Shown: positions 40,012-64,000, counted from the stretch's first letter. The stretch: DNA of 64,000 nucleotides from Deltaproteobacteria bacterium (GCA_017996625.1 JAGOGO010000002.1:1017-65016); one strand, 5' to 3'. Translations and numbers: made by a program. The notes: generated by a model from the sequence alone, not told the origin.

Positions 40012-40233
40012 TGATTGGTCTCCGAACTCTGAAAAATGCCCAGGTTCTCTGAACCTCTTCAAAATCCAGGTGGCGTCCTGACCTTGAGCTGTTGCCACAA
40101 CATCGGCAGCATCACCATCTCAGTGAACGTTTCGCAGAAGGTAGCAACGGTTAGATGCTGTTATATTCCGTGCGTCGTTCATAGCAATCTTAGCCTATCT
40201 TCATCACATAAAATATAACATTTCGGCGATACG

Positions 40234-43863: not shown

Positions 43864-45090
43864 TTATTGCTGCAAGTGACTTACTCCTAATGTCTGAAGT
43901 AAATTCCCCATGAACATCTGGCCGGCAGCCTCGAGGTCTCCAGATAGTGCGAAGGCCATGGTTCTCACTCTAATTTTTTCACCAACCTTTTCATTCATCG
44001 AGGCATCTAGAGGAACCGGATAAATCAGTATTGCTTCCTCACAGTTCTTCATCTCTGCATAGGTCACAACTTGTGTCACATCATGCGCCTCCGGTTTGTG
44101 CTTCGCCTTGTATTTGGTATCGAGGACACAGAGGGCCTTGTCAGTATGAGCATCATACAAAACGAGATCGATCTGAAACGAAAGGTCGTTGTTCTCGCCA
44201 ACCGTAACGGTCTCCTGCTTTCCTAATCTGATGCTCGCGGGCAGATGAGTTCTTAGCCACTCCGCGACAAAGAGTTCATACAGCCTTGCCATATCCACCA
44301 CAAATGGGAGCATTGTCTTATCGCCCGAATGATGTGTCGGACCGCTATGCTCCAGAAAAAAGCGGCAGAGGGCATGCAACGGTCGATAATCTTCATTGAG
44401 CCGGTTATATAACCGTTTGATACAATTCCTAGGGGAAACCGCGTTCAATGATGCAAAGCCGCGAAGTGCATGGAAGGCGCGACGAACTGTCGGCAGCACT
44501 CGCTCAGTGCAGATTCCGCTGCGAGCGATAAGCGCCATAGTCCAGCAGAGGATCTGATTTTCTTCGATGTCAGCAGTATGCTCCTGATAATGACAGTGCA
44601 CCTTAACGTCCCAGGGACTCTTAATACATTGAGGAACATCCACTCTGCCCCTGATAAAAGGGAGTTGATCGTTCTCATTCAAGTATGTTCGATACAAGCC
44701 CTTGCGGCTCCTGTCGAGTATCCGCTGGGCTAAGATATTGGCTAAGCGTTCATAAAACTCCTGGATAGAACTGCAGCCGGTAAGACCTTCGAGGATCTGA
44801 AAACTATTCAGCTGGTAGGCGTACTCGAGCATACGAAAAATGTTGCTCAGTTCTACCTTTGGTTTGAGACTAATACCTAAATCTGGGGTGCAAGGCAAAT
44901 ACCCGACCCATCCCTGAGAACTAAGGAGCCACTGGTTTTCAGTCTTTGGGCTGGGGAAATCGACAGAAACCTTGTCCTTATATTTCTTCCAGATAAGCTC
45001 TCCCTCTTCAGGGGATAGTGCGTTAGAGGGAAACATCTGAGAGACATACTCAGTTAATGAGATAACTCTGCGTCCGCTCTCTTCATTCAC
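43864..45090 (-). CDS. mcrC: McrC subunit of McrBC modification-dependent restriction endonuclease
   Basis: PD-(D/E)xK core VLDTKYK. 408 aa. 4 bp overlap with mcrB upstream. Confidence 0.8.
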   Translation of the reverse strand: MNEESGRRVISLTEYVSQMFPSNALSPEEGELIWKKYKDKVSVDFPSPKTENQWLLSSQGWVGYLPCTPDLGISLKPKVELSNIFRMLEYAYQLNSFQILEGLTGCSSIQEFYERLANILAQRILDRSRKGLYRTYLNENDQLPFIRGRVDVPQCIKSPWDVKVHCHYQEHTADIEENQILCWTMALIARSGICTERVLPTVRRAFHALRGFASLNAVSPRNCIKRLYNRLNEDYRPLHALCRFFLEHSGPTHHSGDKTMLPFVVDMARLYELFVAEWLRTHLPASIRLGKQETVTVGENNDLSFQIDLVLYDAHTDKALCVLDTKYKAKHKPEAHDVTQVVTYAEMKNCEEAILIYPVPLDASMNEKVGEKIRVRTMAFALSGDLEAAGQMFMGNLLQTLGVSHLQQ

Positions 45091-47039
45091 GGGATGATCT
45101 CTTTCCCAATTTTGTTCCAGCTGAATTCCTCTACTCGTTGATGCTGATCAAAAAAGTATTCTTCCAGATAGGGCTCTATTTCCATTCGCCAGATGTCCTC
45201 AAGATGATCTGAAAGCTTTTCCCGGAGAAAGAACGAAATACCGACTTCATAGTGTGGATCGCCAATCTGGTTGTTGAGCTTTTTTAAAACAGCAATAAGC
45301 CCTTCAGGATCAAAACCGTTCTTCTCATGAAAAACACGCAAGACATCATAATTTGGCTGGAGAGCAAGGAAAGCAAACCTGCGGCGAAGGGCGTGATCAA
45401 CTAATGCAATTGACCGGTCAGCGGTATTCATGGTACCGATGATTCGAACATTCTCTGGGATGCGCAGCGAGCCGCCGCTGGCAAGGGGAACCTCTTTATT
45501 GCGATACTCGAGAAGATACATCAGCTCGCCAAAGACTCGTGCCAGATTGGCCCGATTTATTTCATCAATGATCAGAACGCAACGGCCCGTACATTCTGCC
45601 GCCTTCCGGCAGAATTCAAGAAACCTGCCGGGTACCACCGGATAATCGAGCTGCCCGCCGGCATTGGCCTTGGGACGGATTCCCTGCATGAAATCCTCGT
45701 AAGCATAGGCGGGATGAAACTGCACCAGGTCACTGAAGCCATCACCACCGCTGATGAGGTGTCTCGCCAAGTGCTCGGCAATAAATGTTTTGCCGGTGCC
45801 CGGGGGCCCATAGAGAATGGCTTGCCCTTTGCGCTCGATGGCGCGGACCCAGCGCTGTAATGCGTCTTGCGGAAACCCCGTCTTAGCGGCACATTCAGAT
45901 AAAGAATACTTATCAGGTGGTATCTCAGCAGGTGGAAGAAGCGCTTCGAGCCGCTCAAACTCCCCTTTTGTGAGAGGGGTAATGGTCTTCATGAACTTAG
46001 CCTGGAGTTCTGTGGGAATGGGGACGCCGGTATCTGAAATCCGGTAATAGTCTACGGCAACAGTATGCTTGTAGTCTTTCAGTTCGGGCCGGAACCGGTA
46101 TCCGCTCTTCACTATCCCTGCAGCAAGAAGAATCTTTTTCCCCTTGTTGGTAACCAAGTGGTCTCCAGGTTTAAGGTTGATAAAGTTGAAAAGCTGCCGT
46201 GCTGCAATTTTCCGCTGTCCTTCCTTGAGATTCGGGCGTCTAGTACGATACATCTCGATAAGTTCAGCATGTGATTTTCCCGTTAGGTCGAAGGCAAGAG
46301 GGGCGAACCCTACTGCTGCAATCGAGTCTCTCTTGAAATCTCCCCACTCACGTCCCCCTTTACTTGCACCGATCTGCCAGTAAGACCCTTGTGAAGTCTT
46401 AATCAAGGACTCTATGAGATCAACACCTTCCTGCACTTCCGTCCCGTAATGCATCAGATGGTTCAGCTGGTAGAAATCCTGGCTAGGGTCGAGTTGCTTG
46501 AGATGAAGGAAGGCGTCAGATATCAGTCGGTATTTCTGCGCAGTGGAGAGTTTTTGGGTTTTCACATTGATGCCGACCTTCTGGAGAAAGTTCTCGGTCT
46601 TGTTGTTCCAGTTGGGCAGCACATCTGGATATCGAGCCTGAAGAATGGGCGCCCAGAATGACCTGGCGAAGATGGGAATCTTGAATTTCCCCTCGAGGAT
46701 CTTTTCTGCTTTTTCAAAGGGATCATCAGGGGAGTCGATGAGGTATTCAAGATTTCTTTTCACTTTGCTAAGCTGACCAGATATCCTTGGCATGCCAAGC
46801 CGAATATATGCCGGCCCCTCCAGCTTCCTGGAGTACTCGAAAACTTTATCACTCAGATCCTTTTTCGATACTTCGGAAAGGTACTTCTTACTGAGCAGCG
46901 TTGTGCGCAGATCTTCGGCAAGTTGCCGGTGCCGCTCGGCATACTCAGTCCCTTCCTTCGTATCCTGCGCACACCAGGAGGAATAGGAAGCGAGAAGCGT
47001 CTTGAGGTCCTCATCGGAAAGAATAAAAGTACTGCTCAT
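45087..47039 (-). CDS. mcrB: McrB-family AAA+ GTPase subunit with long N-terminal DNA-recognition region
   Basis: Walker A ILYGPPGTGKTF and McrB-specific box RCVLIIDEINRANLARVFGELMYLLEYR. 650 aa. Confidence 0.85.
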   Translation of the reverse strand: MSSTFILSDEDLKTLLASYSSWCAQDTKEGTEYAERHRQLAEDLRTTLLSKKYLSEVSKKDLSDKVFEYSRKLEGPAYIRLGMPRISGQLSKVKRNLEYLIDSPDDPFEKAEKILEGKFKIPIFARSFWAPILQARYPDVLPNWNNKTENFLQKVGINVKTQKLSTAQKYRLISDAFLHLKQLDPSQDFYQLNHLMHYGTEVQEGVDLIESLIKTSQGSYWQIGASKGGREWGDFKRDSIAAVGFAPLAFDLTGKSHAELIEMYRTRRPNLKEGQRKIAARQLFNFINLKPGDHLVTNKGKKILLAAGIVKSGYRFRPELKDYKHTVAVDYYRISDTGVPIPTELQAKFMKTITPLTKGEFERLEALLPPAEIPPDKYSLSECAAKTGFPQDALQRWVRAIERKGQAILYGPPGTGKTFIAEHLARHLISGGDGFSDLVQFHPAYAYEDFMQGIRPKANAGGQLDYPVVPGRFLEFCRKAAECTGRCVLIIDEINRANLARVFGELMYLLEYRNKEVPLASGGSLRIPENVRIIGTMNTADRSIALVDHALRRRFAFLALQPNYDVLRVFHEKNGFDPEGLIAVLKKLNNQIGDPHYEVGISFFLREKLSDHLEDIWRMEIEPYLEEYFFDQHQRVEEFSWNKIGKEIIP

Positions 47040-47101: not shown

Positions 47102-47521
47102 TCACCGAAAATCCCTTCCCTCAATCAGGGTACAGACTGCTTCCAGGAATTGATTGAATGCGGGGGTAGGTTCCGGCTTTCCGGAAGGGCCACCTTTGCT
47201 GTTCGGGTAATTATTGTATCCTCGGCACGTGATTGATCTTCCGCTAATAGCAATATCGACTAACCAGTGAGTACCGTCACAGATTCCTGGATTTTGATAC
47301 TCCAGCTGCCAGTCCCAGATACCTATCTTATCAAGTCTAGTCCAGAAGCTCATCCATTTCTCCTCGTCAATGGAGAGTACCTCCTGTTGAGGTTCTGCCG
47401 ACGCGTGCTGAGTTGCCTCATACTGCAGGTTGTCGCCGTGAAGCTTCAAGGAATAAAAAGGTCCCGGATAGCCACCGATAGCAACAATAAACCGGTGCGG
47501 CAAGAAGCGTGTGTGGTGCAT
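47102..47521 (-). CDS. hypothetical 139 aa protein immediately upstream of mcrB
   Basis: ORF only, 62 bp from the mcrB start. No family recognised. Confidence 0.3.
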   Translation of the reverse strand: MHHTRFLPHRFIVAIGGYPGPFYSLKLHGDNLQYEATQHASAEPQQEVLSIDEEKWMSFWTRLDKIGIWDWQLEYQNPGICDGTHWLVDIAISGRSITCRGYNNYPNSKGGPSGKPEPTPAFNQFLEAVCTLIEGRDFR

Positions 47522-48131: not shown

Positions 48132-49049
48132 TCAATGTTGGCCCTCCAATAACTCGTACGCGAGAAGCACATTTTCCAGTGCCTTTTTCTGTGTCCTTGT
48201 GAGCTTTACATCCTTGTAATATTGATTTCCGTTGAGTCTTACCGTAGTTTCTTTGGAGCATGCGATAGATCTGATCATGTCGAGATCGGAAGAATCCAAT
48301 TCGATCATGCACCACTCCCACACCTCCGTGTAATTGTCTCGTTCGAAGCCTGCATACTTCTTGAATTTGTTGCCATCGACTTTTATGTCAAAAGATTCAA
48401 TAAAGAGCCACTCATCTCCATAGTACTGCACAACAAGATATAGATTGGTGAGTCGCATATCATCAGTTCTACCGAAACAAACATAAAAGCCGTTTTGAGA
48501 TCTGCTGGTTGGTGAAGTTTGGTCACAGTATAAAGTCATCTCCTCCATATCGTCTCTTTTCTTGCGCAGCTTTTTCAAAGTGTCCGTTACCCTCTTTTCC
48601 TTTTCTCTCTTGTAATAGTTAAACTTCTCTTCATAAAGCTTCTCTTCTGGATTCACTTCCATGAGCTGGGAATAGAGCATTATATTACGATCAAGATCGG
48701 TCGAAGGGACGGTCTTCACTTCCTCAAACAATCTTTTCTCTTTTTCTTCCTTCGTTTCTGCTTGCTTCGCTTCGCTTTGAGTTATAGTCTGCTTCTCTTT
48801 TGTCTGTTTGTCTGAACATTCCCGAATGAGATTTGAAAAAAACCCTATACCTGCAATAACAACGAATACGGTAAGGCAACCATGACTCGACTTCGTCGAT
48901 TTCTTCTTTTCCTTCGCATAAGGTGGCTCCTTATAGGATAGTTCCTTGCCCTGCAACATTGCACCGCAATGTTTACACTTGATAGCCTCTTGCTTTATTT
49001 CTTCTGCACAATAAGGACACTTTTTTGTTGCAGACATCCTCGCCTCCAA
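48132..49049 (-). CDS. zinc-ribbon plus single-TM protein with unknown C-terminal domain (low-GC, likely horizontally acquired)
   Basis: CPYCAEEI...CKHCGAML, then TM helix LTVFVVIAGIGFF, a K/E-rich linker and a 170 aa C-terminal domain. Noticeably A+T-rich relative to its flanks. Confidence 0.4.
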   Translation of the reverse strand: MEARMSATKKCPYCAEEIKQEAIKCKHCGAMLQGKELSYKEPPYAKEKKKSTKSSHGCLTVFVVIAGIGFFSNLIRECSDKQTKEKQTITQSEAKQAETKEEKEKRLFEEVKTVPSTDLDRNIMLYSQLMEVNPEEKLYEEKFNYYKREKEKRVTDTLKKLRKKRDDMEEMTLYCDQTSPTSRSQNGFYVCFGRTDDMRLTNLYLVVQYYGDEWLFIESFDIKVDGNKFKKYAGFERDNYTEVWEWCMIELDSSDLDMIRSIACSKETTVRLNGNQYYKDVKLTRTQKKALENVLLAYELLEGQH

Positions 49050-49079
49050 CCGATAGTGGATATCTAACGAAAGCTAACT

Positions 49080-49530
49080 TTGTTAGCAGCAGTTAAAAGC
49101 GGCCGCTGAAGGGAGAATCAAAACTGGCCATTTTCGAGGATAATACCTTGTGAGAGTATAGCCACTGGTAAGGAGATGGCTGTGTGAGTAACTACTTGAA
49201 AATGGCCAAGCAGAACCTGATTCTTGCTCTCAAAACCTTAGGCTGGTCCATGCGACATATCCAATGGGAGATCGGTGTGCGCCGCGAGGCCATCTCAGAA
49301 TACGTGCGCTGCTCGGATGCAAAAGCGGCCATTTCGCCCACCGGCCCTCTGCGCATGCTGAATTGTGATACTGGTCTGTACTGAACAACGACACACCGTC
49401 GGTTCTTGAATGTCGCATCACGATAGACGCTCTGGTGGTGAACCTTCTGTGTCCCAGAAGTTAAGTATTGTGTCTCCGGACTTTCGGATTATTACATTAA
49501 GTATGGTGTCCCCAGAATTCTCCTTGCCGT
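49080..49530. mobile_element. IS21-like remnant: about 35 aa IstA-type N-terminal HTH fragment (49184-49384 ORF) followed by terminal-repeat copy 3 with three TGTGTCCC-type direct repeats
   Basis: ORF MSNYLKMAKQNLILALKTLGWSMRHIQWEIGVRREAISEYVR resembles the IS21 IstA HTH (…IK…G.S.R.IA.ELG.SRNTV.KY). Bases 49315-49530 align with copies 1 and 2. No intact transposase follows. Confidence 0.4.
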
Positions 49531-49576
49531 TAGAAACTAAGAATCAAGATATGAACCCGATTGTTGCACCACTACT

Positions 49577-52500
49577 TTATAGGTAATCCTGCCACGTCAC
49601 AATCGACGATTGTGGATCAAGAAAGAAATCAGTATCCTTGAATAGGAAGTAAGGCCAATCCTTTGAAATACTTGACTCAGCTAGTCTATATCCTGCTTGG
49701 TCGTACCAGTCAATGTGATGTTTCTCCTTTACGGGGAGAATGCGCAGTTTCGGTCCCGTGTACGTTGAGAAATCATCGACAAGTGTAACGGGAATTTTCC
49801 GTTGAGTCGGATAGCGTTCGTCTTCTATCGTAGCTCTAGCATCCTTTCTTTCGAATATCCATTTATCAACTAATCTGGGTTCCAGAACAGCATCGCTGAT
49901 TTCGCCGACGTTGTTCCAATACTCCTTGGCTATAACTGCAGCATCTGGGCGCGTGTAGGCTTCTTTCCTTGTCAGGAGATGTGTAGCAATAGGATCAAGC
50001 ATACCCCAGCTTATCATATCCTTATACCATAACACCGACCACGGCAATTCGCATCGCCGCCAGCGTTCCAGAAAATCTCCATCGCCGCCATCATGCTCAA
50101 GAATAGACCCAATGGCTGATCCAAGAGCCCAATTCAATCCATAGATAAAATACTTAGATGCAAAGTCATACCAACGAGAAACACTCTTGCCTGATGGAAT
50201 GCGATCGGATCTATAAGGTGCCATCCACCAGGTCAACACATCTTGCCAAGCCACAGTGGACTTCCCGCTTGTTAGATCACGAACTCCAAAGGCTTCAATC
50301 TGGCTAATCGCCTCAACTAAGGAGGTGATATTGTTGATCCGCTCGGAATCGTTCCAAGTGACGAAGTCCACTGCCTTCGTCATGATGGTCTTGATATTAG
50401 AGAGCTTGGAGATCAGCACCTTTCCATCTCTCGGCGCCAAACCTGTATGATATAAAGCGCGGCGATATTGTTTTTCAGGATAAATGAACTCTGTTATTGC
50501 TTTTCCTCGCTGCAGAAATATCTTTTCTGCAATTGAGTCACTGAAACCCATTTTACAATGAAATGCTAGTGTGTTATGCCACAGCGACCGAAGTGAATCC
50601 TCCATATTTGCTTCGGGATTCAAGCCTTCAAGTTCGACAATACTAGTGAGCAATTGCTGATCAAGCGTATCTAAAGATCTTAAGAGATTCCCTTCCTCGC
50701 CTTGCGCCGAAGAAAATGCAGTCCGTTCAAGCCAAGCGATAAACTGATTGATATCCTTGCTCCCGGATAGGCGCGACCAGAGATTCTCAATCCGAATTGT
50801 CAAAGCATACAACGGAGAGTTTAGTCTTTTGACGTTTTTGACTTGCCGCTCGGTCATGGCGCGGATGATCTTCTCATATGCCTCTTGAGAAATCTTCTGA
50901 GCTTCTCCAAGGGCATTTGTGGAAAGTAGTACAAGTGTTTTACCCTCTGTAGAAACTCCTGGCCTTCCAGCCCGCCCCGCTACGTTAATTATCTCCCTTG
51001 AGGTCACAGGTTGTCTTGAATTCACAGGCTGTCGAAAGCGTAAGAGTGATGGTATCAGAATTGTCTCAAAAGGAAGATTCACGCCTTCAGACAGAGTTGA
51101 GGTTGCAATTACGATATTGATTACATGCTCTTCAATAAGTTCGATGAGAAGGCGAGACATCACCGGCGGCATCTTGCCATGATGAAGGACTATACCCTTC
51201 TGAAGGAGACGGTGTTCACGGGAAATCGGACCGAAGTAATCAGCGCATGAAGCCAAACAGCGAGATAAAAGGGCTTGATCCCTGCTGCGCTTTGGCTGCC
51301 CGAAGAAATCTGGATATTGGATGTCTGCCCAATCATCTGTGAGTAACCTTATGAATGTTTCAGCATATTGTTCAGGGTGCTCGGTTACTGATATAAGAAC
51401 CGAGTGTCTTTTCCCGTCCAAAGGTCGAGCGAAGTGCATGGCCGCCCATAATAGATGTGCCCGCATGCGCTTCTCAACACTATCATCTTTCTTAAAAGCC
51501 CTTATTACCGGCGGATGCGGGGGAAAAGGGTTAGCAACGTAGGGGGCACTTTCCTCCTCATTAACTAATAGACGTTGTCCATCGAGCACATCATATCGAA
51601 TAGTGGTCACTCCATTGTCACTACACCACAGTTGGCCAAAAAGTTGACGAGTACTTCTATAATCTGGGGCAATAGCGCGAGATTCATTCTTTCCTGTCAT
51701 CCAAGCTGACAGAACATCCCGGATATCTGTTGCTACAGCAGACAACGCTACGAATGTGGTATGTGGAGAACATAAGGTTTTCAGCCGAGAGACAAGGCCC
51801 TCCAACCGTAGAGAGCGGCTTTGAGCTGTGGCCAGAGCTTCGTAATCCCCTGTGAATGCAACTGAATGGGCCTCATCAATAATAACGCATGATAGCTTTT
51901 TCAGCATTGTTTGACCTAACAAGCGAAGAAGAGCATCTGCTTTTTCATGCGTCGAAATTAATACGATAGGTTGTTCTGCAATATTGGTTAGGTCCGATGG
52001 GCCAAAATCATTGCCACCATAAAGTGACGTAACTACGACGCTCGTTGCTCTGATGTTGCGCAAAGAGCGTGCAATGTTCGATTCAACCTCACTCGAAAGT
52101 GCTTTTGAGGGAGTGAGATAGAGAATCAATGGGGCGTCATTCTTGATGTGTCGATCTTCATGTCCAAACAAATGACGTAGTATCACCAATTCCGCGACAC
52201 GCGTCTTACCTGAGCCAGTAGGTGTGCAAAGAGCAAAAGAACCTTCTGATGCAATGCCAGCAATACCAGCTTGCTGAGATGGCCAAGTTAGTATCTTTCT
52301 TTCCAGAAATGCGACTCTCGCATAACGGTTTAATGCCTGACGACCGTCATCGGATACCTTTTCTGTGAGAGGTAAGAGCGATGTCCAAAGAGCCTCGTTC
52401 TTAAACTCTCGTGCGATTGCAGCGAAAATAACAGAAAGCAACCAAGAGAACCTATCACTATCGTAACGTAATGCGCTGGCGACCTTCTCAAGAGTCTTTA

Positions 52501-53152
52501 TAGCCGAGTCGATCCGCACCTCATCTCCCCACCTCATCCATGCTGTAAGTACTCCGATCGCGCGTAATAGCTGATTGAGAATCACAATACCTGTCTGATG
52601 TTTTGTTGAATCGCCTTTACCACCATGTCGCCAAAAGTCTAGCAAAAGTCGTTGTGCTCGAAAAAAATCCGCACGAAGAAGAGCTGTAAGAATCTGTGAT
52701 GTCTTATCCGGTAGAGTATGTTCAGACAATATTCCTAAAGCTCTCGCGGGGTACCCAGCTAATTGGTAAATGGATGCAGCAAGGAGTACCACTGGAATTG
52801 GGAAATCGACAGGTGAACTTGTCGCCGCCCACTCAAATATCTCTGCAGCGCGGCGCAGGTACCTACGGCTATCGGACATATCTGGAGCAGCCATTCCAGC
52901 AATCAAAAGCTTTTCACCCTCGGTTAAACGAACAATGAGTTCATCATTTGTCCATGAAGGCAGTCCCTTCGCACCAGCGCGGAGCCTTGTATGTTGGGCA
53001 TAGAGGCGTGCAATACCCCGACTGAGCGATGGTCCGGCCACGCGCTCTGCAAAGTCGTGAATCAAGTCCAAGCTGCCTTCAGCCATATATTTCATTTGGA
53101 GCCATCCATCCTCTCGTAGAGTGAAGAGATGAGGATATGAACGCCAGGGCAA
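49577..53152 (-). CDS. large SF2 DExH helicase, HamB-like (Hachiman-type helicase partner of DUF1837)
   Basis: Motif I CTPTGSGKT, II VIIDEAHS, VI VAGRAGRPG. 1191 aa with long N- and C-terminal extensions. The start overlaps the upstream DUF1837-like gene by 61 bp. The helicase call is secure; the Hachiman assignment is inferred from gene pairing. Confidence 0.5.
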   Translation of the reverse strand: MPWRSYPHLFTLREDGWLQMKYMAEGSLDLIHDFAERVAGPSLSRGIARLYAQHTRLRAGAKGLPSWTNDELIVRLTEGEKLLIAGMAAPDMSDSRRYLRRAAEIFEWAATSSPVDFPIPVVLLAASIYQLAGYPARALGILSEHTLPDKTSQILTALLRADFFRAQRLLLDFWRHGGKGDSTKHQTGIVILNQLLRAIGVLTAWMRWGDEVRIDSAIKTLEKVASALRYDSDRFSWLLSVIFAAIAREFKNEALWTSLLPLTEKVSDDGRQALNRYARVAFLERKILTWPSQQAGIAGIASEGSFALCTPTGSGKTRVAELVILRHLFGHEDRHIKNDAPLILYLTPSKALSSEVESNIARSLRNIRATSVVVTSLYGGNDFGPSDLTNIAEQPIVLISTHEKADALLRLLGQTMLKKLSCVIIDEAHSVAFTGDYEALATAQSRSLRLEGLVSRLKTLCSPHTTFVALSAVATDIRDVLSAWMTGKNESRAIAPDYRSTRQLFGQLWCSDNGVTTIRYDVLDGQRLLVNEEESAPYVANPFPPHPPVIRAFKKDDSVEKRMRAHLLWAAMHFARPLDGKRHSVLISVTEHPEQYAETFIRLLTDDWADIQYPDFFGQPKRSRDQALLSRCLASCADYFGPISREHRLLQKGIVLHHGKMPPVMSRLLIELIEEHVINIVIATSTLSEGVNLPFETILIPSLLRFRQPVNSRQPVTSREIINVAGRAGRPGVSTEGKTLVLLSTNALGEAQKISQEAYEKIIRAMTERQVKNVKRLNSPLYALTIRIENLWSRLSGSKDINQFIAWLERTAFSSAQGEEGNLLRSLDTLDQQLLTSIVELEGLNPEANMEDSLRSLWHNTLAFHCKMGFSDSIAEKIFLQRGKAITEFIYPEKQYRRALYHTGLAPRDGKVLISKLSNIKTIMTKAVDFVTWNDSERINNITSLVEAISQIEAFGVRDLTSGKSTVAWQDVLTWWMAPYRSDRIPSGKSVSRWYDFASKYFIYGLNWALGSAIGSILEHDGGDGDFLERWRRCELPWSVLWYKDMISWGMLDPIATHLLTRKEAYTRPDAAVIAKEYWNNVGEISDAVLEPRLVDKWIFERKDARATIEDERYPTQRKIPVTLVDDFSTYTGPKLRILPVKEKHHIDWYDQAGYRLAESSISKDWPYFLFKDTDFFLDPQSSIVTWQDYL

Positions 53153-54012
53153 TGGAATTCGACTGATGTTAGTTCACGCATCCCAGTATATCGTTCGTGG
53201 GGAGAGTCTGTTGGAATCCATGTCTTCCTAAGCTTGGGGCAATCACCACAAACATACACACTCAAGTCGCAACGAACGGAAAGCTTCCTCGATGCATATT
53301 GCCACCAATATTTCTGCAATGCGGAGATCCAAGTTCGGCTGTACTTGTCATCACGATAATCCTTCAACGCATCGATCAGTCGGAGCAAGTCAATTGGTCG
53401 AGTCACGGCCTGACTGAGTTTCTCATGATTATCGGATATCAGTTGAGACGAATGATCTCTGGTACACTTCGCTTCGCATGCCAGCCAAGCTATGATATCC
53501 CCATCCTTATTTAGCGCAAAAGCTAGGCCGTCATCGCCTGTCCGCCCTATTACTTGCCTCGACCACTCATCAGTTTGTTTCATGTATTCGAGCTGCTGGA
53601 AAGCAATTACATGAGTGCGAAAAAGGTAGACCGGAACTTTCCATTCGTATTCACCATCTCCTGCATAGTATTCGGCGACAATTCCGGCGATAATCTCGCC
53701 AAAGAAAGCTTGAAGAGCGATATTGCCCAGCTTGTGTGGATATCCAAAGGCCGGGTCGATTTCAGTATCATAATGGAGAGGATGTAGTGAGTTTTCAAGT
53801 GGTGCCCGCAAAGATTGGCGAGCACCATCATGGGCGTGGTCAATATATGTGAAAAGTTCATCTAGTTCGGGTTGAGTAACGGTCCGTTTAGCGCGAATAA
53901 GCAGATGGCAATAGCGAGGGGATTTTTTGTTATGAGTCTTCTCTACCGTTAGCCAAGAATTTAGCAGTCTCAGTCGCGGATGTTCAGCAGAAACTATTGG
54001 GTCGGATTGCAT
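53092..54012 (-). CDS. HamA-like (DUF1837-like) PD-(D/E)xK nuclease-fold protein
   Basis: LNKDGDIIAWLACEAKCT gives a D...EAK nuclease motif. 306 aa, translationally coupled to the helicase. Confidence 0.4.
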   Translation of the reverse strand: MQSDPIVSAEHPRLRLLNSWLTVEKTHNKKSPRYCHLLIRAKRTVTQPELDELFTYIDHAHDGARQSLRAPLENSLHPLHYDTEIDPAFGYPHKLGNIALQAFFGEIIAGIVAEYYAGDGEYEWKVPVYLFRTHVIAFQQLEYMKQTDEWSRQVIGRTGDDGLAFALNKDGDIIAWLACEAKCTRDHSSQLISDNHEKLSQAVTRPIDLLRLIDALKDYRDDKYSRTWISALQKYWWQYASRKLSVRCDLSVYVCGDCPKLRKTWIPTDSPHERYTGMRELTSVEFHCPGVHILISSLYERMDGSK

Positions 54013-54490
54013 ATAACTATGCCCCGTATCTAAATGAGCATTTCTCGAACTTATGTCATATCTTGGGGAGGGGTGGGGATGTTATTCACTGGATTAACTA
54101 ACGACCATGCGACTCAGATTAGGGGCAATCGCTGCGGCCGATATCCCACGCTGTAGTATGGTTTCCGCTACCCCCATCCCCTGCTTCACAAGCTTCTGAG
54201 TACACTACCCTCGAAAACACAGTTTGTGTACCCAGTGAACAACGTCCCCGGCTAGTTCCCTATCATTAAGCAGGAATTGCTCTCGAACCGCAGTGGAAAT
54301 TATTCGGGATGAATGCGGTATGTGCAAAATCATACGCTCCTGTCAGCCTGCGGTATACTGCTGTTGGCCGCATATGATAAGAATTTACGGAACAGGTAAG
54401 CAAGCTAATACAAGTCATCCGATATCTTGTGTGATCACGTTTAACGCCCTCTCATTCAATGTCCCTATTTTCACTCGATTGCTCGGTAAT

Positions 54491-54832
54491 CTATGGTTCC
54501 TTCAGAGACAAGACTTCTATCTCACCTGATAGGGTATCAAAAAGGAAATGATCAACCTTGTCGAGTTCTCCCGGTATTAACATCGGCGCCCTTTTCAACA
54601 TTGCCACCCACGAGGAGTCTGCTACTTTGAAGGTGTTTCCAAGTCTCTTGAGTCTAAAGTATTTTTTAAATCGAAACGCTACACAATGCTTAAACAAAAC
54701 CAGCCACTTTTTGTTTTTACTGATGTCCTCAAGGCATATAGAAAGATGATTGTCGGATTTTAAAATAATCTCGTGGCTGGCAAGATTATCGATACGAGAC
54801 AAAGGCGTCTTCCACACTTCTATTGAATCCAT
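54491..54832 (-). CDS. hypothetical 113 aa protein downstream of retron RT
   Basis: ORF only, 175 bp from the RT stop. Confidence 0.25.
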   Translation of the reverse strand: MDSIEVWKTPLSRIDNLASHEIILKSDNHLSICLEDISKNKKWLVLFKHCVAFRFKKYFRLKRLGNTFKVADSSWVAMLKRAPMLIPGELDKVDHFLFDTLSGEIEVLSLKEP

Positions 54833-55007
54833 ACCGATTTTTTATTTCTGAGACTGTTAGATCATGATGATACAGCAGTCTTCTGCCTCGCTGAATTTAC
54901 AGAGTCTTACTCGGTGAAGTATAGACCCTGCTTAGGGTCATTCTGAGCTGGCAGGAAAAATATACTATGCGTGCTGTAGCTCGCCCTAGACCACCTCTTG
55001 TGCGTTC

Positions 55008-55934
55008 CTAGATGTTGCTCAATACTCGTTTGCCGTATTTTTGTTCCATCCGTTCGACAAAATTCGGTTCGATAGAGCGGGCAAATGCAAGCATGCCGCG
55101 GAGTGAACTTTTTTCCTGGGGAGTGAGATGTCCCGTTATAAGATGATGTATCTGCGCTCTAATACGGCGCTTCTTTTCTCGGCCAAGTGACACACGGCCT
55201 GCATTAGAGAGAACTAATCCGGTTACCATCCGACGATGAGCTTTTGACCCGAAAATTGTTTTCTTCTGATTAATTTGCAGCTTAGGAAATGGCAGTTGTT
55301 GTATCACTTGAAGAACCCTATTGAGAACTTCTGATCTAGCTGCCTTCTCCATCATGGAAAAAGTCATATCATCGGCATACCTGGTATATGTGATACTACG
55401 TTGGCAACAATAGCTTTCAATTTCACTATCAAACCTATGCATGATGGCGTTGGACAAATAAGGAGAGGATGGAGCACCGACTGAAAGCTGAAGGTTGTGA
55501 ATTCGTTTAGGATACCAAAAAAGAATCCTTACAAGCAACTGTAGATCGAGCTCATCGAGGTCCAGGTTGTTGAGTTCTCTTATGTACTGAATAAAATCAT
55601 CTCCCTTGATTGAAGGAAAGAAATCCACGAAATCAAGCTTCAGCAAATAAGGCTTGGCGACATGAAGTTCAGAGTTGTTTAATATATTCTTTGCCTTTAT
55701 ATAGGCAGTTGCGGACGGATGAATTGGCAATCGTGGAAATAAATTCTCAATAACCCAGTACTGGAGCCTTTTAACCTCCTTAGCTGGTTGGGCTATGGTG
55801 CGCATACCAGTTCCAGATCGCTTTGGTACCTCATAGACCTTATAGCGATAAGGTGCACTTCTAATTAAGTATTCCAAACGTTCCTTTGGCAGAAGTAAAT
55901 CTTTAGACAATTTGGCTAAGAGTGAGACTACCAT
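55008..55934 (-). CDS. retron-type reverse transcriptase
   Basis: All retron RT signatures are present: PKRSGTGMRTIAQPAKEVKRLQYWV, LKLDFVDFFPSI, SVGAPSSPYLSNAIM, YTRYADDMTFS, VTGLVL. 308 aa. Confidence 0.85.
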   Translation of the reverse strand: MVVSLLAKLSKDLLLPKERLEYLIRSAPYRYKVYEVPKRSGTGMRTIAQPAKEVKRLQYWVIENLFPRLPIHPSATAYIKAKNILNNSELHVAKPYLLKLDFVDFFPSIKGDDFIQYIRELNNLDLDELDLQLLVRILFWYPKRIHNLQLSVGAPSSPYLSNAIMHRFDSEIESYCCQRSITYTRYADDMTFSMMEKAARSEVLNRVLQVIQQLPFPKLQINQKKTIFGSKAHRRMVTGLVLSNAGRVSLGREKKRRIRAQIHHLITGHLTPQEKSSLRGMLAFARSIEPNFVERMEQKYGKRVLSNI

Positions 55935-55947: not shown

Positions 55948-56916
55948 CTAACTCGTTTGCCTAAAATGTGAAATCAATGCCTTGTATTTTTGCTTATTGT
56001 GGTGGATGTAATGATCATTAAACATTATTGTCCAACGATCCCGATCCATGCCACGAACGTTTGCCGTCTGTCTATAGGCAATCGCGAGCCGAGGTTCGTG
56101 CGCGCAAGTGCGGTAATAGACATTGTGGCCGTATTGCTTTTTTTCAATCAGCTTCAAGGATTTCAGTAAACTCAAATATTTGCTTAGTTGATATCGTTCA
56201 TACCGTATATCCAGCCATTCGAGAAATTTGTTTAATTCATCTAAAGATGCGAGCTGCACAGTCTCCAGCAGATCGAGCATTAGTAGCATGACATGCCCTA
56301 ACTTATCTCTGCTGAACGATTCGGACTTTGGCAATTCCAAAAGAATTTTCATTACTGTCTCTGCGAGGTCTTCCACATCAAAGAAATCATCCTGCGTGAC
56401 CGACTCGTCATTATTATCCTTGTTCCTCCAAGTATATACTGTAACTGGGCTATCTTTGCCGTTCTTTTCTGCAATCTTCATAATATGCAGGATGGGTCCT
56501 CGCCAAATAAAAGATTTCTTTTCCCAATGATCTTTGTGCATGACTACCAGAAGTCTTTCCCGAATAGTATCCAGTACTGCAAACGAACCGAGCTCAGCAA
56601 TTGAGCCAGGGCTCTCCGAGAAAATTATTGTCAAAGCAGATAGCTCAGCCAAGTCTCTTTCAAAGTCAAGAAGGTCGGTGTATTCTGAGTGGTAAAAATA
56701 GTCGAAAACATCCTCTGCTAATACAATGTCCTGGCGATACATGTATTTGCTCTGACAGATATATTTGCAAAAGGCATCGCGACAAGAGTGCGGGGCTTTG
56801 TGGGAGTCTGTGATTTCACCACCACACAGGAAAACGAAGGAAGGCAACTTGACGACACGGCTCTTCGTCAAGTCAATTGATGATATCCATTCTCTGTATA
56901 TTGGATCTATTTCCAA
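55948..56916 (-). CDS. retron accessory/effector protein with N-terminal nucleoside 2-deoxyribosyltransferase-like (NDT) fold
   Basis: VFLCGGEI... and ESPGSIAELGSFAVL resemble the NDT family D.G[TS].FE.G.A catalytic-Glu motif. 322 aa with a TTG start. It lies 14 bp upstream of the RT, the Sen2-like arrangement msr/msd - effector - RT. Confidence 0.45.
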   Translation of the reverse strand: MEIDPIYREWISSIDLTKSRVVKLPSFVFLCGGEITDSHKAPHSCRDAFCKYICQSKYMYRQDIVLAEDVFDYFYHSEYTDLLDFERDLAELSALTIIFSESPGSIAELGSFAVLDTIRERLLVVMHKDHWEKKSFIWRGPILHIMKIAEKNGKDSPVTVYTWRNKDNNDESVTQDDFFDVEDLAETVMKILLELPKSESFSRDKLGHVMLLMLDLLETVQLASLDELNKFLEWLDIRYERYQLSKYLSLLKSLKLIEKKQYGHNVYYRTCAHEPRLAIAYRQTANVRGMDRDRWTIMFNDHYIHHNKQKYKALISHFRQTS

Positions 56917-56920
56917 TAGA

Positions 56921-57085
56921 ATGCTCTTTACTTAGAGGCAGGCATGGTGGCCTTCCTCGGCTTACCGACGGTGAGCCGAGGAAGGCCACCATGCCGGTAA
57001 GTGTTATCAATCCGTAAAAGTCCAGCGGAACGCCGGACAAAGCCTAAAAACTGCTTATCCTCTAAAGAGCAAGTTCTATCCTTGC
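56921..57085 (-). ncRNA. candidate retron msr-msd non-coding RNA
   Basis: Read on the minus strand. A TTGACA -35-like hexamer sits at about 57100. It is followed by a1 GCUCUUUAGAGG (57070-57059). The msr hairpin is GUCCGGCG-UUC-CGCUGGAC. A perfect 22 bp stem GGCAUGGUGGCCUUCCUCGGCU / AGCCGAGGAAGGCCACCAUGCC with an 11 nt loop (56943-56997) is the proposed msd. An imperfect a2 CCUCUAA(GUA)AAGAGC (56938-56923) abuts the effector start. Confidence 0.4.
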
Positions 57086-57197: not shown

Positions 57198-59972
57198 TTA
57201 TTTAACCGGTACCCTCCCGCTCAAACCCAAATCTCCGAGTATGAGCTTGAGGTCTGACTCGAAGCTCTGTGCCTGGTTCTTCTCAACCGTTACGGAAAAA
57301 CAGATACTGATCTTCAAGTCCGATCCGCTGCGCAGCTTCGGGAGAATCTTTGTCCCCAGTCGATTCCAGACTTCAGGCGGAATCTCACCGGAAATCTGGA
57401 ATGTGCGGGTTCCTGCACCAGGTATAACCTCCGGCTCGGTTCCTTCTCCTGACTGAGTGCCGATCACATCTATAACTTCTGGTCGAGGTTCCGGACGCTG
57501 GGTGGGCTCAGGTTCATGAGCCGGCCCTGAGCTTGACTTTAACGCCTTGGCCTTCGATTTCAGAAGAAGAAATACTCCCTGATCGAAAATGATTTCTTCT
57601 GACGGGACTGCCTCCTGAAACCAGACCCGATCATAGGAGCCGTCTGTCTTCTGACCTGAGGCGAATCCAAAGTCCCCCTTATCCACCCAAGCAGCTATTC
57701 TGCTGCGCAGGACAGTGTCTGGATCAAGGAGGCGCGTCAGTGATCCATTAAGGAAGCTTTGCCGGAGACTGGTCAGAGGCCAGGCACCGGAGTCTCTCAA
57801 GGCAGGGGGCCAATTGCGTTCAACATAGCTGGCTCCTACTGATTCATTCAGCAAAGCCTGCGACTTGAGCGCAGTGATAACCCGGCCGCACAGAGTCTCT
57901 CCACTGCTGGAGTGCCCAGCTCCGAGGTCAATAGTCTTTAATCCGTTCGGCTCCTTGCTGTCAGCAATGACTACAAAGCGATAGCCTCCCCATACTTCGT
58001 CGTGGGCTGCTTCTTCGCCTTCAGTCGCCTTTGTCCGCACCTCCAATCTATCTTCAGGACTGAATTCTCCTCCCAGTGTCTTCTCTCTGATTTCCTTATC
58101 TACTCGTTTCCAGGCCAACCATAGTTCAATCTTGTCACGCAAATCGCGGCCGGGCTTTTTCACACACCACACAAGCGAGCCCGGATAGAGCCTGGGTGAC
58201 TTTCCCCTTTGCTTGGTCCATTCGGCAATTTGATCAACAAGGCTCCCCTTACCCGTCCATTCGCATGCAGGGTCAAGCACCACAAGCGTCAGCTTGGGTG
58301 TATCTTGAATCTCGGTGCCGTCGGATGGAAACTGGACAAGGGGAATGGTTGCTCCACGCTCAAACTCTTTTTGAACAACAGCGCGCATGGCCGGTTTGAC
58401 ATCGTTCTCATCATCCAGGGACGCGCGTCGGTCGTTCACAACCTTTTTCATCGTCGGCTGGTAGCCGATTCTGAATCCGTCGGAACCGATGCGTCGAATG
58501 AAATATGATTTGTCTTCGAGAGCGAAAGCGGCATTGTCCACCGACGTGGTATCGATCTCCGGCTCACCAAGGGCAAAGCGCAATTCGGGCAGGTGCGCCA
58601 CTTTATCCACCTGGCCACCGGAAGACTCAAAGAGAATCGCAGTGGCTACCCGTCGATGAATATCGCGCAATGCCGCTTTTGAGTCAGCATCGAGGGCGCG
58701 GGCATGAGAATGATCGCCGGCAATATCAGCATCAATAGCGGCCTCAAGGCGTGATTCCCCAAGTTGGCCGAGAACAACACTGCGGAATTCCGCCACCTCC
58801 AAAGGAGCCGATCCAAGAGTGATAAGCGCCTCGTTGCGCGCGTCATAGAAATTAGTGCGGCTAGCCCAGGAAATCCACTGGGCAAGCATGGCAAGGGTTC
58901 CACGCGTCTGCTGGTACTGCGGCAATGCCTGCCATTTTCTCTGGAAAACCGACAGGGTCGCGGGGTGAAATGGATAACACGTCTCAAATCGCTGCTGCAA
59001 ATATTCTTTGGCTTTTGCTTCCGTGGCTGCGGTGTCAACGGCCATCCATTCAGGCGGAAGCTGGGCACGGCGTTGGAAGCACCATTCGGCGTAAGTCTTC
59101 GCCACAGTCTTGCGAACTCGGTCTTTCCCTATGTCCTCAAACAACCGCCGGCGAATCACTTCGCTTATTTCAGTTTCGTCGTTTGCGATGAGATCCTTGG
59201 CCACACGTCGAACCACCTTTGTAATCTTATTCTGCCATGCCATGTCCCAGTCGGTCATTTCCACCTGGCTTCGCGGCAAACTTATGACTGCTGCTCCGTG
59301 AGTAGTACCCGTAGTTGCAACCGTCAAGTTCTGAATAAAGGAATGGAACTGATCAGCCATATCTCTATGCCGATTCAAGAAGTTCAGTACTTCATCGAAG
59401 AGAATGAGCACCGGGGCTTCAGCAGCCTTAAAAATCCGATCAAGCGCTTCGGTACCTGGGGGCGTATTCCTTGCCGATGTTCCGAGCTCCCTGACTCCCT
59501 TATCACCCGCAAGCTGCCGAGCAATATCAATCCACGGTGTCTCGCGACCTTCTTGCGGATCCCAAGCATTGCCGACAAATGCAGCGACTTTCGCATGCGG
59601 CACTGCGCTTATTGTTGCCTCATATACAAGATCAGCGACACCAGTATACTCGGCTGCCTTTTCACCGCTACTCATCAAATGGTAAAGAGCTGCAAGTGTG
59701 TGCGTCTTGCCGCCACCGAACTGAGTAATAAGGGTCATGACGGGTGCCGTATTCGCTGTCTCGCCCGAAAGCCGACGCATCACCATGCCGGTGTGCTCTC
59801 TGAGTGCCCGAGTGAAGCAGGTACGAGCAAAGAATTGCTTCGGATCGCGATAATCTTCCGGAGCAGTTTTGGCAATCACCTGTTCCAGATGAATGGCAAA
59901 CTCGTCCGGGTTGAACGAACGCCCTTGTCTGACTTCTTTACGAGGGGTAGTGCTTTTGTACCACGGGTCCAT
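57198..59972 (-). CDS. DUF499-family P-loop ATPase (COG1483-like), 924 aa
   Basis: Walker A TQFGGGKTHTLAALYHL, Walker B PVLILFDEVLN. The large size and the pairing with a DUF1156 methyltransferase match the DUF499 context. The DUF499 assignment itself is from memory of the family. Confidence 0.55.
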   Translation of the reverse strand: MDPWYKSTTPRKEVRQGRSFNPDEFAIHLEQVIAKTAPEDYRDPKQFFARTCFTRALREHTGMVMRRLSGETANTAPVMTLITQFGGGKTHTLAALYHLMSSGEKAAEYTGVADLVYEATISAVPHAKVAAFVGNAWDPQEGRETPWIDIARQLAGDKGVRELGTSARNTPPGTEALDRIFKAAEAPVLILFDEVLNFLNRHRDMADQFHSFIQNLTVATTGTTHGAAVISLPRSQVEMTDWDMAWQNKITKVVRRVAKDLIANDETEISEVIRRRLFEDIGKDRVRKTVAKTYAEWCFQRRAQLPPEWMAVDTAATEAKAKEYLQQRFETCYPFHPATLSVFQRKWQALPQYQQTRGTLAMLAQWISWASRTNFYDARNEALITLGSAPLEVAEFRSVVLGQLGESRLEAAIDADIAGDHSHARALDADSKAALRDIHRRVATAILFESSGGQVDKVAHLPELRFALGEPEIDTTSVDNAAFALEDKSYFIRRIGSDGFRIGYQPTMKKVVNDRRASLDDENDVKPAMRAVVQKEFERGATIPLVQFPSDGTEIQDTPKLTLVVLDPACEWTGKGSLVDQIAEWTKQRGKSPRLYPGSLVWCVKKPGRDLRDKIELWLAWKRVDKEIREKTLGGEFSPEDRLEVRTKATEGEEAAHDEVWGGYRFVVIADSKEPNGLKTIDLGAGHSSSGETLCGRVITALKSQALLNESVGASYVERNWPPALRDSGAWPLTSLRQSFLNGSLTRLLDPDTVLRSRIAAWVDKGDFGFASGQKTDGSYDRVWFQEAVPSEEIIFDQGVFLLLKSKAKALKSSSGPAHEPEPTQRPEPRPEVIDVIGTQSGEGTEPEVIPGAGTRTFQISGEIPPEVWNRLGTKILPKLRSGSDLKISICFSVTVEKNQAQSFESDLKLILGDLGLSGRVPVK

Positions 59973-60082
59973 ACGCTTATCTCCTTAAAGCGGACGATAC
60001 CAGGAGCGCTTTCTCATCGCCAAAACATTCGGTCCCAAATCACAAAAATCACAAAAAGGGTGTTCTCTTGTGATTTTTGTGA

Positions 60083-61252: not shown

Positions 61253-61258
61253 GCTACC

Positions 61259-63999: not shown

Positions 64000-64000
64000 G

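What the first reader, a model, noticed from the sequence alone, without database searches (positions are those of the whole stretch)
49577..54012. Hachiman-like pair: D..EAK nuclease-fold protein translationally coupled to a 1191 aa DExH helicase
The 306 aa protein with DGDIIAWLACEAK overlaps by 61 bp a helicase with motifs I/II/VI and large accessory domains. This is the HamA(DUF1837)-HamB architecture. The helicase is longer than the HamB proteins I remember, so this may be a divergent subtype or a different nuclease-helicase system altogether.
Basis: partly seen in the sequence, partly recalled or inferred. Interest (0 to 1): 0.6.

Follow-up and report, generated by a model that had tools for sequence, protein, structure and literature searches.

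The report
Hachiman (HamA-HamB) anti-phage defence pair
These two overlapping genes are a member of the known Hachiman anti-phage defence system (a DNA-cutting enzyme held in check by a DNA-sensing helicase); its only unusual feature is that the nuclease belongs to a divergent branch that standard domain libraries do not recognise.

Summary
Both ORFs are real. The helicase is a full-length HamB. It matches PADLOC HamB1 models at E 4e-68. A profile of its relatives matches the solved E. coli HamB (1174 aa) at E 1.9e-58. Its AlphaFold model superposes on E. coli HamB at TM 0.76-0.80 over the whole chain, against about 0.40 for Hel308 and Pol-theta. Its length is normal for this HamB clade. The 61-bp overlap comes from taking the longest ORF. 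The likely start is the ATG at 53095, which gives 1172 aa and a 4-bp ATGA overlap.

The 306-aa protein has no Pfam DUF1837/HamA (PF08878) hit, and neither do any of 56 relatives. It is still a remote HamA homologue. Its only significant PDB fold match is E. coli HamA (E 2.7e-6). A profile-profile alignment to PF08878-positive HamA lines up the GxFGE, WxVP, GxDxLAF and ExK motifs (E 1e-4). D161, E180 and K182 are invariant. In 75 of 80 genomes that carry this HamA branch, a HamB gene follows directly, and in 19 the two are one fused ORF.

Verdict: an ordinary type I Hachiman system in a defence island, and a new member of a known kind. The mechanism is inferred by homology: HamB senses damaged DNA and activates the HamA nuclease, which degrades DNA.

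The parts
53092..54012 (-). hamA-like gene, 306 aa. It is a PD-(D/E)xK-type nuclease of a divergent HamA branch that Pfam PF08878 does not detect.
   Evidence: ORF listed. AF2 model has pLDDT 90.5. Foldseek against the PDB puts E. coli HamA 8vx9_A first at E 2.7e-6, with the next hit at E 0.16. hhalign to PF08878-positive HamA gives E 1e-4. No Pfam hit.
53467..53547 (-). HamA active-site segment G156-K182 (GRTGDDGLAF...CEAK). The predicted catalytic residues are D161, E180 and K182.
   Evidence: These residues are invariant in 56 family members. They align with D120, E137 and K139 of canonical HamA. Coordinates were checked by translation.
53092..53095 (-). ATGA junction where the hamB start codon overlaps the hamA stop codon, implying translational coupling.
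   Evidence: Sequence read. Gene calls on identical contigs show the same 4-bp overlap. Orthologous pairs are separated by about -8 to +3 bp.
49577..53095 (-). hamB gene, 1172 aa from the ATG at 53095. The longest ORF, from the TTG at 53152, would be 1191 aa. It is a Ski2-like SF2 DEAH helicase with HamB-specific accessory domains.
   Evidence: PADLOC HamB1 E 4e-68. PDB profile search hits 8vx9_B at 1.9e-58. AF2 model has pLDDT 86.4. Foldseek TM 0.76-0.80 to E. coli HamB.
52301..53095 (-). HamB N-terminal alpha-helical bundle, residues about 1-265. It corresponds to the NAH domain that binds HamA in E. coli HamAB.
   Evidence: All-helical in the model. The family profile aligns to E. coli HamB from residue 59. 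The role of the NAH domain is taken from PMC12278908.
52202..52216 (-). HamB motif I (Walker A), GSGKT, residues 294-298.
51866..51877 (-). HamB motif II, DEAH, residues 407-410. It aligns with the DEGH motif of E. coli HamB that contains D431.
   Evidence: The D431A mutant is described in PMC12278908.
50963..50977 (-). HamB motif VI, GRAGR, residues 707-711.
49580..49813 (-). HamB C-terminal beta-barrel, residues about 1095-1172. It is OB-like, as in E. coli HamB.
   Evidence: Beta strands at 1100-1170 in the model. The whole chain superposes on 8vxa_A and 8vx9_B. The OB domain is described in PMC12278908.

Best explanation
This is a two-gene type I Hachiman anti-phage defence system, of the kind with a nuclease-only HamA and a long ECOR31-like HamB, sitting in a defence island.

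Shown here: hamA and hamB are co-oriented and translationally coupled. HamA has the HamA fold and an intact D161/E180/K182 nuclease triad. HamB has all SF2 helicase motifs and the full HamB domain order (N-terminal helical bundle, RecA1, RecA2, helical region, C-terminal OB-like barrel). The two genes are inherited together or fused across many phyla.

Inferred from the E. coli HamAB work (PMC12278908, PMC11914072): the proteins form a 1:1 complex in which the HamB N-terminal helical bundle holds HamA inactive. When HamB meets damaged DNA or a free single-stranded DNA end during infection, it hydrolyses ATP. The resulting movement activates or releases HamA. HamA then degrades phage and host DNA non-specifically, which is abortive infection.
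For: HamB identity:
- PADLOC HamB1 models PDLC00192 at 4e-68 and PDLC00174 at 2.5e-64, covering residues 123-1011.
- phmmer hit to 8vx9_B HamB in a single stretch, 236-1011.
- Family profile against the PDB: 8vx9_B first at 1.9e-58, 11 orders of magnitude ahead of the Ski2-like helicases, which match only the helicase core.
- AF2 model with pLDDT 86.4. Foldseek top three are E. coli HamB structures, TM 0.76-0.80 in both normalisations, E 4e-37. The next hits, Hel308 and Pol-theta, are at E 9e-17 with TMq 0.40.
- All helicase motifs are intact.

HamA identity:
- AF2 model with pLDDT 90.5. The only significant PDB fold matches are E. coli HamA 8vx9_A and 8vxy_A (E 2.7e-6 and 1.5e-5, probability 1.0, TM 0.55/0.63). 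Everything else has E >= 0.16.
- hhalign of the family against 33 PF08878-positive HamA proteins gives E 1e-4 over 244 columns, with GxFGE, WxVP, GxDxLAF and ExK in register.
- 28 of 56 relatives hit PADLOC HamA1, best E 1.6e-9.
- G105, E106, D160, D161, E180 and K182 are invariant.

Linkage:
- 75 of 80 species genomes with this HamA branch have HamB immediately downstream on the same strand. Three of the other five loci run out of DNA.
- 19 loci are single-ORF HamA-HamB fusions.
- A canonical, annotated HamA sits beside a related long HamB in a Streptomyces plasmid.

Context: a type II-A retron, McrBC and a DUF499/DUF1156 system flank the pair.
Against: - Pfam PF08878 (HamA/DUF1837) does not hit this protein or any of 56 relatives at E <= 1.
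- A profile of the family finds no PDB sequence at all.
- PADLOC HamA hits the window protein only at E 0.04, over 48 residues.
- The hhalign probability is only 58%.
- The HamA fold match is moderate: TM 0.55-0.63, rmsd 6-7 A, 12-15% identity.
- No promoter or terminator signal exceeds chance.
- Complex formation, nuclease activity, DNA sensing and phage defence were not and could not be tested here.
Confidence: 0.87

Rival explanations
1. A housekeeping Ski2/Hel308/Lhr-type DNA-repair helicase that happens to lie next to an unrelated hypothetical gene.
For: The RecA core resembles Hel308, Brr2, SLH1 and Pol-theta. No DUF1837 Pfam hit was found in the upstream protein.
Against: - NCBIfam Hel308 and Lhr-type equivalogs score 32-90 bits against cut-offs of 850-1500.
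- Only HamB matches outside the helicase core, across profile positions 60-999.
- The whole-chain TM-score is 0.78 to HamB and 0.40 to Hel308.
- The upstream gene is linked to the helicase in 75 of 80 genomes and fused to it in 19.
- The locus lies among defence genes and appears on plasmids.
Confidence: 0.02
2. A distinct nuclease-helicase defence system that shares only a HamB-like helicase. Its 306-aa partner would be an independently recruited PD-(D/E)xK nuclease, analogous to PADLOC candidate PDC-M23 or to the AbpAB-type variants.
For: The partner escapes PF08878 and reaches PADLOC HamA models only weakly. The helicase also hits PDC-M23B models at 4.7e-30. A profile of the family finds about 360 clusters at 50% identity, a discrete group.
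Against: - The only significant PDB fold match is HamA itself.
- The motifs line up end to end with canonical HamA.
- HamB1 models beat PDC-M23B by about 38 orders of magnitude.
- The partner has no extra Cap4 or peptidase domain, and its active site is intact, unlike AbpA/type I-B (PMC11914072).
- No PDC-M23A hit was found.
Confidence: 0.08
3. A decayed or non-functional remnant of a Hachiman locus.
For: Some related loci carry a split or truncated hamB (L004-L006; several).
Against: In the window both ORFs are full length, and every catalytic and helicase motif is intact. The identical HamA protein is found on 17 contigs from several samples.
Confidence: 0.03

Closest known systems
E. coli ECOR31 Hachiman HamAB (PDB 8VX9, 8VXA, 8VXC, 8VXY; Tuck et al. 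2024, PMC12278908). It is called type I-A in PMC11914072 and type III-A in PMC13064477.
   Same: - Two genes in the order hamA then hamB.
- HamA is a single-domain D-ExK nuclease.
- HamB is about 1170 aa with the same domain order (NAH, RecA1, RecA2, WH*/CAH, OB-like) and a whole-chain TM-score of 0.76-0.80.
- The motif II Asp aligns with D431.
- The HamA ExK aligns with E138/K140 by fold match.
   Different: - Only 18-19% identity for HamB and 12-15% for HamA in the Foldseek alignments.
- HamA here is 306 aa, against 259 residues in the 8vx9_A chain.
- HamA here is invisible to Pfam PF08878.
- The host is a Desulfobacterota-like metagenomic bacterium.
Canonical PF08878 (DUF1837) HamA proteins, for example Streptomyces sp. 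NBC_00624 WP_331718347.1, which lies beside a 1204-aa HamB.
   Same: The gene order is the same, with a 4-bp overlap and a long HamB. The GxFGE, WxVP, GxDxLAF and ExK motifs are shared.
   Different: That protein hits PF08878 (1.4e-6) and PADLOC HamA1 (1.4e-23) over its full length. The window protein and its family do not. The two HamB proteins are about 27% identical.
AbpAB / type I-B Hachiman (E. coli K-12; PMC11914072, PMC10732053).
   Same: A HamA-like protein paired with a Ski2-like helicase, acting in DNA-damage-responsive defence.
   Different: AbpA carries an N-terminal Cap4 nuclease and a catalytically dead DUF1837 domain, and its HamB lacks the WH* and OB domains. Here there is no extra domain, the active site is intact, and an OB-like barrel is present.
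Hel308/Hjm, Pol-theta helicase domain and Brr2/SLH1 (Ski2-like SF2 helicases).
   Same: The RecA1-RecA2 core and ratchet-like helical region are shared.
   Different: They lack the N-terminal HamA-binding bundle and the C-terminal barrel. TMq is 0.40, and family cut-offs are not reached.

Membership tests
Hachiman type I (HamA + HamB) | HamA matches the DUF1837/HamA Pfam model PF08878. | tested here: not met
   No hit at E <= 1 for the window protein or for any of 56 relatives. The same library does hit a canonical Streptomyces HamA.
Hachiman type I (HamA + HamB) | HamA is homologous to characterised HamA, judged by fold and profile-level similarity. | tested here: met
   Foldseek against the PDB: only 8vx9_A and 8vxy_A (E. 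coli HamA) are significant, E 2.7e-6, probability 1.0, TM 0.55/0.63. hhalign against PF08878-positive HamA gives E 1e-4 over 244 columns, but the probability is only 58%. PADLOC HamA1 hits 28 of 56 relatives, best E 1.6e-9, and the window protein at E 0.04.
Hachiman type I (HamA + HamB) | HamA has a conserved D...ExK nuclease active site (the catalytically active class). | tested here: met
   D161, E180 and K182, plus G105/E106, are invariant in 56 sequences. They align to D120, E137 and K139 of canonical HamA.
Hachiman type I (HamA + HamB) | HamB is an SF2 Ski2-like helicase that matches HamB models. | tested here: met
   PADLOC HamB1 at 4e-68 and 2.5e-64. PDB HamB 8vx9_B at 1.9e-58 with a family profile.
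Hachiman type I (HamA + HamB) | HamB has its specific accessory domains: the N-terminal helical HamA-binding bundle (NAH), the C-terminal helical region and the OB-like barrel. | tested here: met
   The whole-chain TM-score is 0.76-0.80 to 8vxa_A, 8vx9_B and 8vxy_B. The secondary-structure order is given. The profile alignment starts at residue 59-60 of both proteins.
Hachiman type I (HamA + HamB) | Helicase motifs I, II and VI are intact. | tested here: met
   GSGKT at 294, DEAH at 407 and GRAGR at 707.
Hachiman type I (HamA + HamB) | hamA and hamB are adjacent, co-oriented and conserved as a pair. | tested here: met
   4-bp ATGA overlap. 75 of 80 genome loci have HamB directly downstream, and 19 are fused.
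Hachiman type I (HamA + HamB) | HamA and HamB form a complex, show ATP- and DNA-triggered DNase activity, and protect against phage. | not testable with these tools
   This needs biochemistry and phage assays. The natural fusions are only indirect support for a physical association.
Hachiman type I (HamA + HamB) | Called as Hachiman by the DefenseFinder or PADLOC system rules. | not tested
   Only the PADLOC HMMs were available, not the system-calling logic or DefenseFinder models. The HamA hit at E 0.04 may fall below the tools' thresholds.
Hachiman type II (with HamC, DUF3223) | A third gene, hamC (DUF3223), lies in the operon. | tested here: not met
   The flanking ORFs 54491-54832 and 48132-49049 have no DUF3223 hit. 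The first has no Pfam hit and the second only a zinc ribbon. The neighbours are not conserved in related loci.
AbpAB / type I-B Hachiman | HamA carries an N-terminal Cap4 nuclease domain and an inactive DUF1837 domain. | tested here: not met
   The protein is a single domain of 306 aa with no other Pfam or PADLOC domain, and its active site is conserved.
Hel308 / Lhr housekeeping helicases | The protein reaches the NCBIfam equivalog cut-off and has the Hel308-type architecture. | tested here: not met
   Scores are 32-90 bits against cut-offs of 850-1500. TMq is 0.40.

The most novel reading that the evidence does not exclude
This HamA lineage is a sizeable branch of Hachiman. It comprises about 360 clusters at 50% identity and at least 98 loci in the one-genome-per-species collection, spread across more than 10 phyla. 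Pfam and PGAP do not label it, so Hachiman prevalence would be under-counted. Within this same branch, Nostocales cyanobacteria (and one Moduliflexus MAG) encode HamA and HamB as a single 1,516-1,615-aa polypeptide. If those fusions are active defence proteins, HamA can be activated while covalently tethered to HamB. That bears on the question Tuck et al. left open: whether HamB hands HamA to the loaded DNA in cis or releases it to cut in trans.
Probability: 0.35. Interest if true: 0.5.

Novelty: new member of a known kind. Interest (0 to 1): 0.25.

Why it matters
For this window, the result turns a "hypothetical protein" and a "DEAD/DEAH box helicase" into a recognisable Hachiman system, inside a dense defence island that also carries a retron, McrBC and a DUF499/DUF1156 system.

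More generally, it shows that a whole branch of HamA nucleases is missed by the Pfam HamA model and is annotated as hypothetical even in RefSeq records (Rhizobium etli, Nitrobacter hamburgensis). Surveys that depend on that model will under-count Hachiman.

The single-chain HamA-HamB fusions in cyanobacteria could serve as a natural experiment on whether nuclease release is needed for activation. None of this changes what is known about how Hachiman works.

Tried and rejected
- Pfam and NCBIfam scans of the 306-aa protein found nothing. A Pfam scan of 56 relatives found only scattered chance hits and no PF08878.
- phmmer and profile searches of HamA against PDB sequences found nothing meaningful. 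Homology to solved HamA shows only at the fold level.
- A Foldseek search of the HamA model against viral structures (BFVD) found nothing with E <= 0.001.
- A promoter and terminator scan of 49000-55100 gave counts equal to the shuffled expectation.
- An Rfam gathering scan of the window found only two tRNAs.
- The 478-bp region upstream of hamA folds only marginally better than shuffled sequence, z = -2.0, and was not pursued.
- The 61-bp overlap and TTG start were rejected in favour of the ATG at 53095.
- The Hel308/Lhr housekeeping reading, the AbpAB type, type II Hachiman and PDC-M23 were all considered and rejected (see Rival explanations and Membership tests).


Full report
**Observation.** The minus strand carries a 306-aa ORF at 53092..54012. 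It contains the quoted peptide DGDIIAWLACEAK at residues 170-182. Directly downstream is a long helicase ORF that ends at 49577.

The junction reads ...TCC AAA TGA in the hamA frame and ATG AAA TAT ATG in the helicase frame. That is an ATGA start/stop overlap at 53092-53095. Gene calls on identical public contigs give a 1172-aa product with this 4-bp overlap. Orthologues are 1160-1172 aa and align from this ATG. I therefore take hamB to be 49577..53095, 1172 aa.

The window matches JGI metagenome contig Ga0116236_10000497 (67 kb). An nr record for the identical HamA protein gives "Deltaproteobacteria bacterium" as its source.

**The helicase is HamB.**
- PADLOC HamB1 models are by far its best matches: PDLC00192 at 4e-68, and PDLC00174 at 2.5e-64 covering residues 123-1011 of a 1163-position model.
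- Against PDB sequences, the single protein matches E. coli ECOR31 HamB (8vx9_B, 1174 aa) in one stretch, 236-1011.
- A 37-sequence family profile puts 8vx9_B first at 1.9e-58, aligned over profile positions 60-999 against chain residues 59-983. Ski2-like helicases (SLH1, Brr2, Hel308, Pol-theta) follow at 1e-47 or worse and match only the RecA core. In that alignment the family's DEAH aligns with the E. coli DEGH motif.
- The AlphaFold model (pLDDT 86.4, pTM 0.86) has an N-terminal all-helical bundle (about 1-265), two RecA domains, a long helical region and a C-terminal beta-barrel (about 1095-1172). This is the NAH, RecA1, RecA2, WH*/CAH, OB order described for ECOR31 HamB (PMC12278908).
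- In Foldseek its top three PDB matches are the E. coli HamB structures: TM 0.76-0.80 in both normalisations, E 4e-37 to 2e-34. The next matches are Hel308 and Pol-theta at E 9e-17 and TMq 0.40.
- NCBIfam Hel308 and Lhr-type equivalogs score 32-90 bits against cut-offs of 850-1500.
- Motifs I (GSGKT, 294), Ia, II (DEAH, 407), III, V and VI (GRAGR, 707) are all intact.

That is not so: the structurally solved HamB is 1174 aa.

**The 306-aa protein is a remote HamA.** NCBIfam has nothing. Sequence searches of the PDB, with the single protein and with a profile, find nothing meaningful. PADLOC HamA1 (PDLC00159) touches the protein at E 0.04, over 48 residues around the active site.

Four further lines tie it to HamA:
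1. Of its relatives, 28 of 56 hit PDLC00159 (best E 1.6e-9) and 8 hit PDLC00155. Most of these hits are weak and partial.
2. A high-confidence AlphaFold model (pLDDT 90.5, pTM 0.91) has only two significant PDB fold matches, both E. coli HamA: 8vx9_A at E 2.7e-6 (probability 1.0, TM 0.55/0.63) and 8vxy_A at 1.5e-5. Everything else has E >= 0.16.
3. I took an annotated, PF08878-positive HamA that lies beside a long HamB in a Streptomyces plasmid, collected its relatives, nearly all PF08878-positive, and compared the two family profiles. hhalign gives E 1e-4 (probability 58%) over 244 columns. GDFGE aligns with GyFGE, WcVP with WeVP, G-D-LAF with GDDgLAF, and PEVK with CEAK.
4. G105, E106, D160, D161, E180 and K182 are invariant in the family.

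By this alignment the catalytic Asp is D161. It lies immediately before a beta-strand (residues 162-167 in the model). The residues match those shown by mutagenesis to be needed for defence in E. coli HamA (E138/K140 in PMC12278908; E150/K152 in PMC11914072) and S. thermophilus HamA (G89, D90, E93, D127, E147, K149 in PMC13064477).

**Linkage.** Individual look-ups always found a roughly 300-aa homologue directly upstream of a 1170-1200-aa helicase, in these sources:
- Desulfosediminicola ganghwensis
- Bacillus rubiinfantis
- several metagenomes
- the Rhizobium etli p42f plasmid
- a Nitrobacter hamburgensis plasmid

The upstream gene is usually annotated "hypothetical protein".

A scan of one genome per species found 98 loci, and 80 were fetched. 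tblastn with the window HamB found a HamB homologue immediately downstream on the same strand in 75 of them. Three of the other five loci end within 126 nt of the HamA match.

In 19 loci the two proteins are one ORF. These are mostly Nostoc, Calothrix, Anabaena and Rhizonema, plus one Moduliflexus MAG. For example, a Nostoc 1530-aa protein has an N-terminus 40% identical to the window HamA over 285 residues, with the GRTGDD...CEAKC motif intact. The 1567-aa RefSeq CDS on Calothrix PCC 6303 plasmid pCAL6303.01 is annotated only as "DEAD/DEAH box helicase".

An exhaustive profile search found 360 clusters at 50% identity with E <= 0.001. The branch is discrete and of moderate size.

**Context.** The pair lies in a lower-GC stretch (0.43-0.50) packed with defence genes:
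- McrC and McrB at 43864-47039.
- A type II-A retron: NDT effector at 55948-56916, RT at 55008-55934, and a strongly structured ncRNA candidate just upstream.
- A DUF499 (HmaC-like), AAA_16 and DUF1156 cluster from 57198 onwards.

No HamC (DUF3223) gene and no Cap4 or peptidase extension is present, so the system is neither type II nor type I-B/C/D in the published schemes.

**Mechanism.**
- Shown here: gene order and coupling, folds, intact catalytic and helicase motifs, and co-inheritance or fusion.
- Inferred from E. coli HamAB (PMC12278908, PMC11914072): a 1:1 complex forms in which the HamB N-terminal bundle restrains HamA. ssDNA ends or damaged DNA trigger HamB ATPase ratcheting. That activates or releases HamA, which degrades DNA non-specifically and aborts the infection.

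I put about 0.87 on this being a functional Hachiman system that works in this way.

**Novelty and score.** This is a new member of a known kind. The mildly interesting points are two. First, this HamA branch is invisible to the Pfam model, so it is left unannotated. Second, its cyanobacterial relatives are natural single-chain HamA-HamB proteins, which bears on the open cis-versus-trans (release) question in Tuck et al.. I did not find such fusions described in the three Hachiman papers I read, but I did not search the literature exhaustively. Interest is 0.25.

Noticed in passing
L016:1990-6693 (Calothrix sp. PCC 6303 plasmid NC_019727.1, 10659-15362); P0174 (Nostoc, 1530 aa); L018-L023, L025, L034, L036, L046, L051 and others: HamA-like and HamB are encoded as one 1,516-1,615-aa polypeptide in 19 of 80 related genome loci. 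These are mostly Nostocales, plus one Candidatus Moduliflexus MAG. The nuclease motif is intact. RefSeq calls them only 'DEAD/DEAH box helicase'. The three Hachiman papers read do not mention such fusions.
   Followed up: partly
window 56915-57080 (-), between the DUF499 gene and the NDT gene: Probable retron msr-msd ncRNA. A 27-nt near-perfect hairpin (56941-56995) is enclosed by 9-nt inverted repeats (56922-56930 and 57063-57071). MFE is -88 kcal/mol, z = -10.2 against shuffles. It lies upstream of a type II-A retron: NDT effector at 55948-56916 and RT at 55008-55934 (PADLOC 8e-73 and 7e-120). Rfam has no match at gathering threshold.
   Followed up: partly
window 43864-47039 (-): An McrBC-type restriction module. 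The 650-aa McrB-like AAA+ protein has an N-terminal DUF8426 region, and its gene overlaps a 408-aa McrC (PF10117).
   Followed up: partly
window 57198-64000 (-): A cluster of a DUF499 ATPase (PADLOC HmaC, 2e-93), an AAA_16 ATPase (60083-61252) and a DUF1156 methyltransferase-like gene that runs off the window end. This looks like part of an Hma-like or DUF1156/DUF499 defence system.
   Followed up: no
window 54013-54490 and 54491-54832 (-): A 478-bp non-coding gap lies upstream of hamA. It contains a 28-nt imperfect inverted repeat (54075-54102 and 54222-54249; fold z = -2.0). It is preceded by a 113-aa ORF with no family hit. No function is assigned.
   Followed up: partly
window 48132-49049 (-) and 47102-47521 (-): A 305-aa protein with an N-terminal zinc ribbon and a lysine/glutamate-rich middle, and a 139-aa protein with a weak DUF6438 hit, lie between hamB and mcrB. 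They are not conserved next to hamAB in related loci.
   Followed up: no
window 38600-38684 (+) and 38986-40098 (-): tRNA-Leu(CAA) lies at the point where GC drops from about 0.55 to 0.43-0.50, followed by a Fic/DOC gene. This may be the boundary of the defence island. No integrase was seen.
   Followed up: no
L013:1910-2866 (Rhizobium etli p42f, WP_011428411.1); L014:2118-2987 (Nitrobacter hamburgensis plasmid 2, WP_245270122.1): RefSeq 'hypothetical protein' genes directly upstream of long DEAD/DEAH helicases. The R. etli protein clearly belongs to this HamA branch (hhalign 1.7e-30). Neither protein has a Pfam hit. Many alphaproteobacterial plasmids appear to carry unannotated Hachiman systems.
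   Followed up: partly
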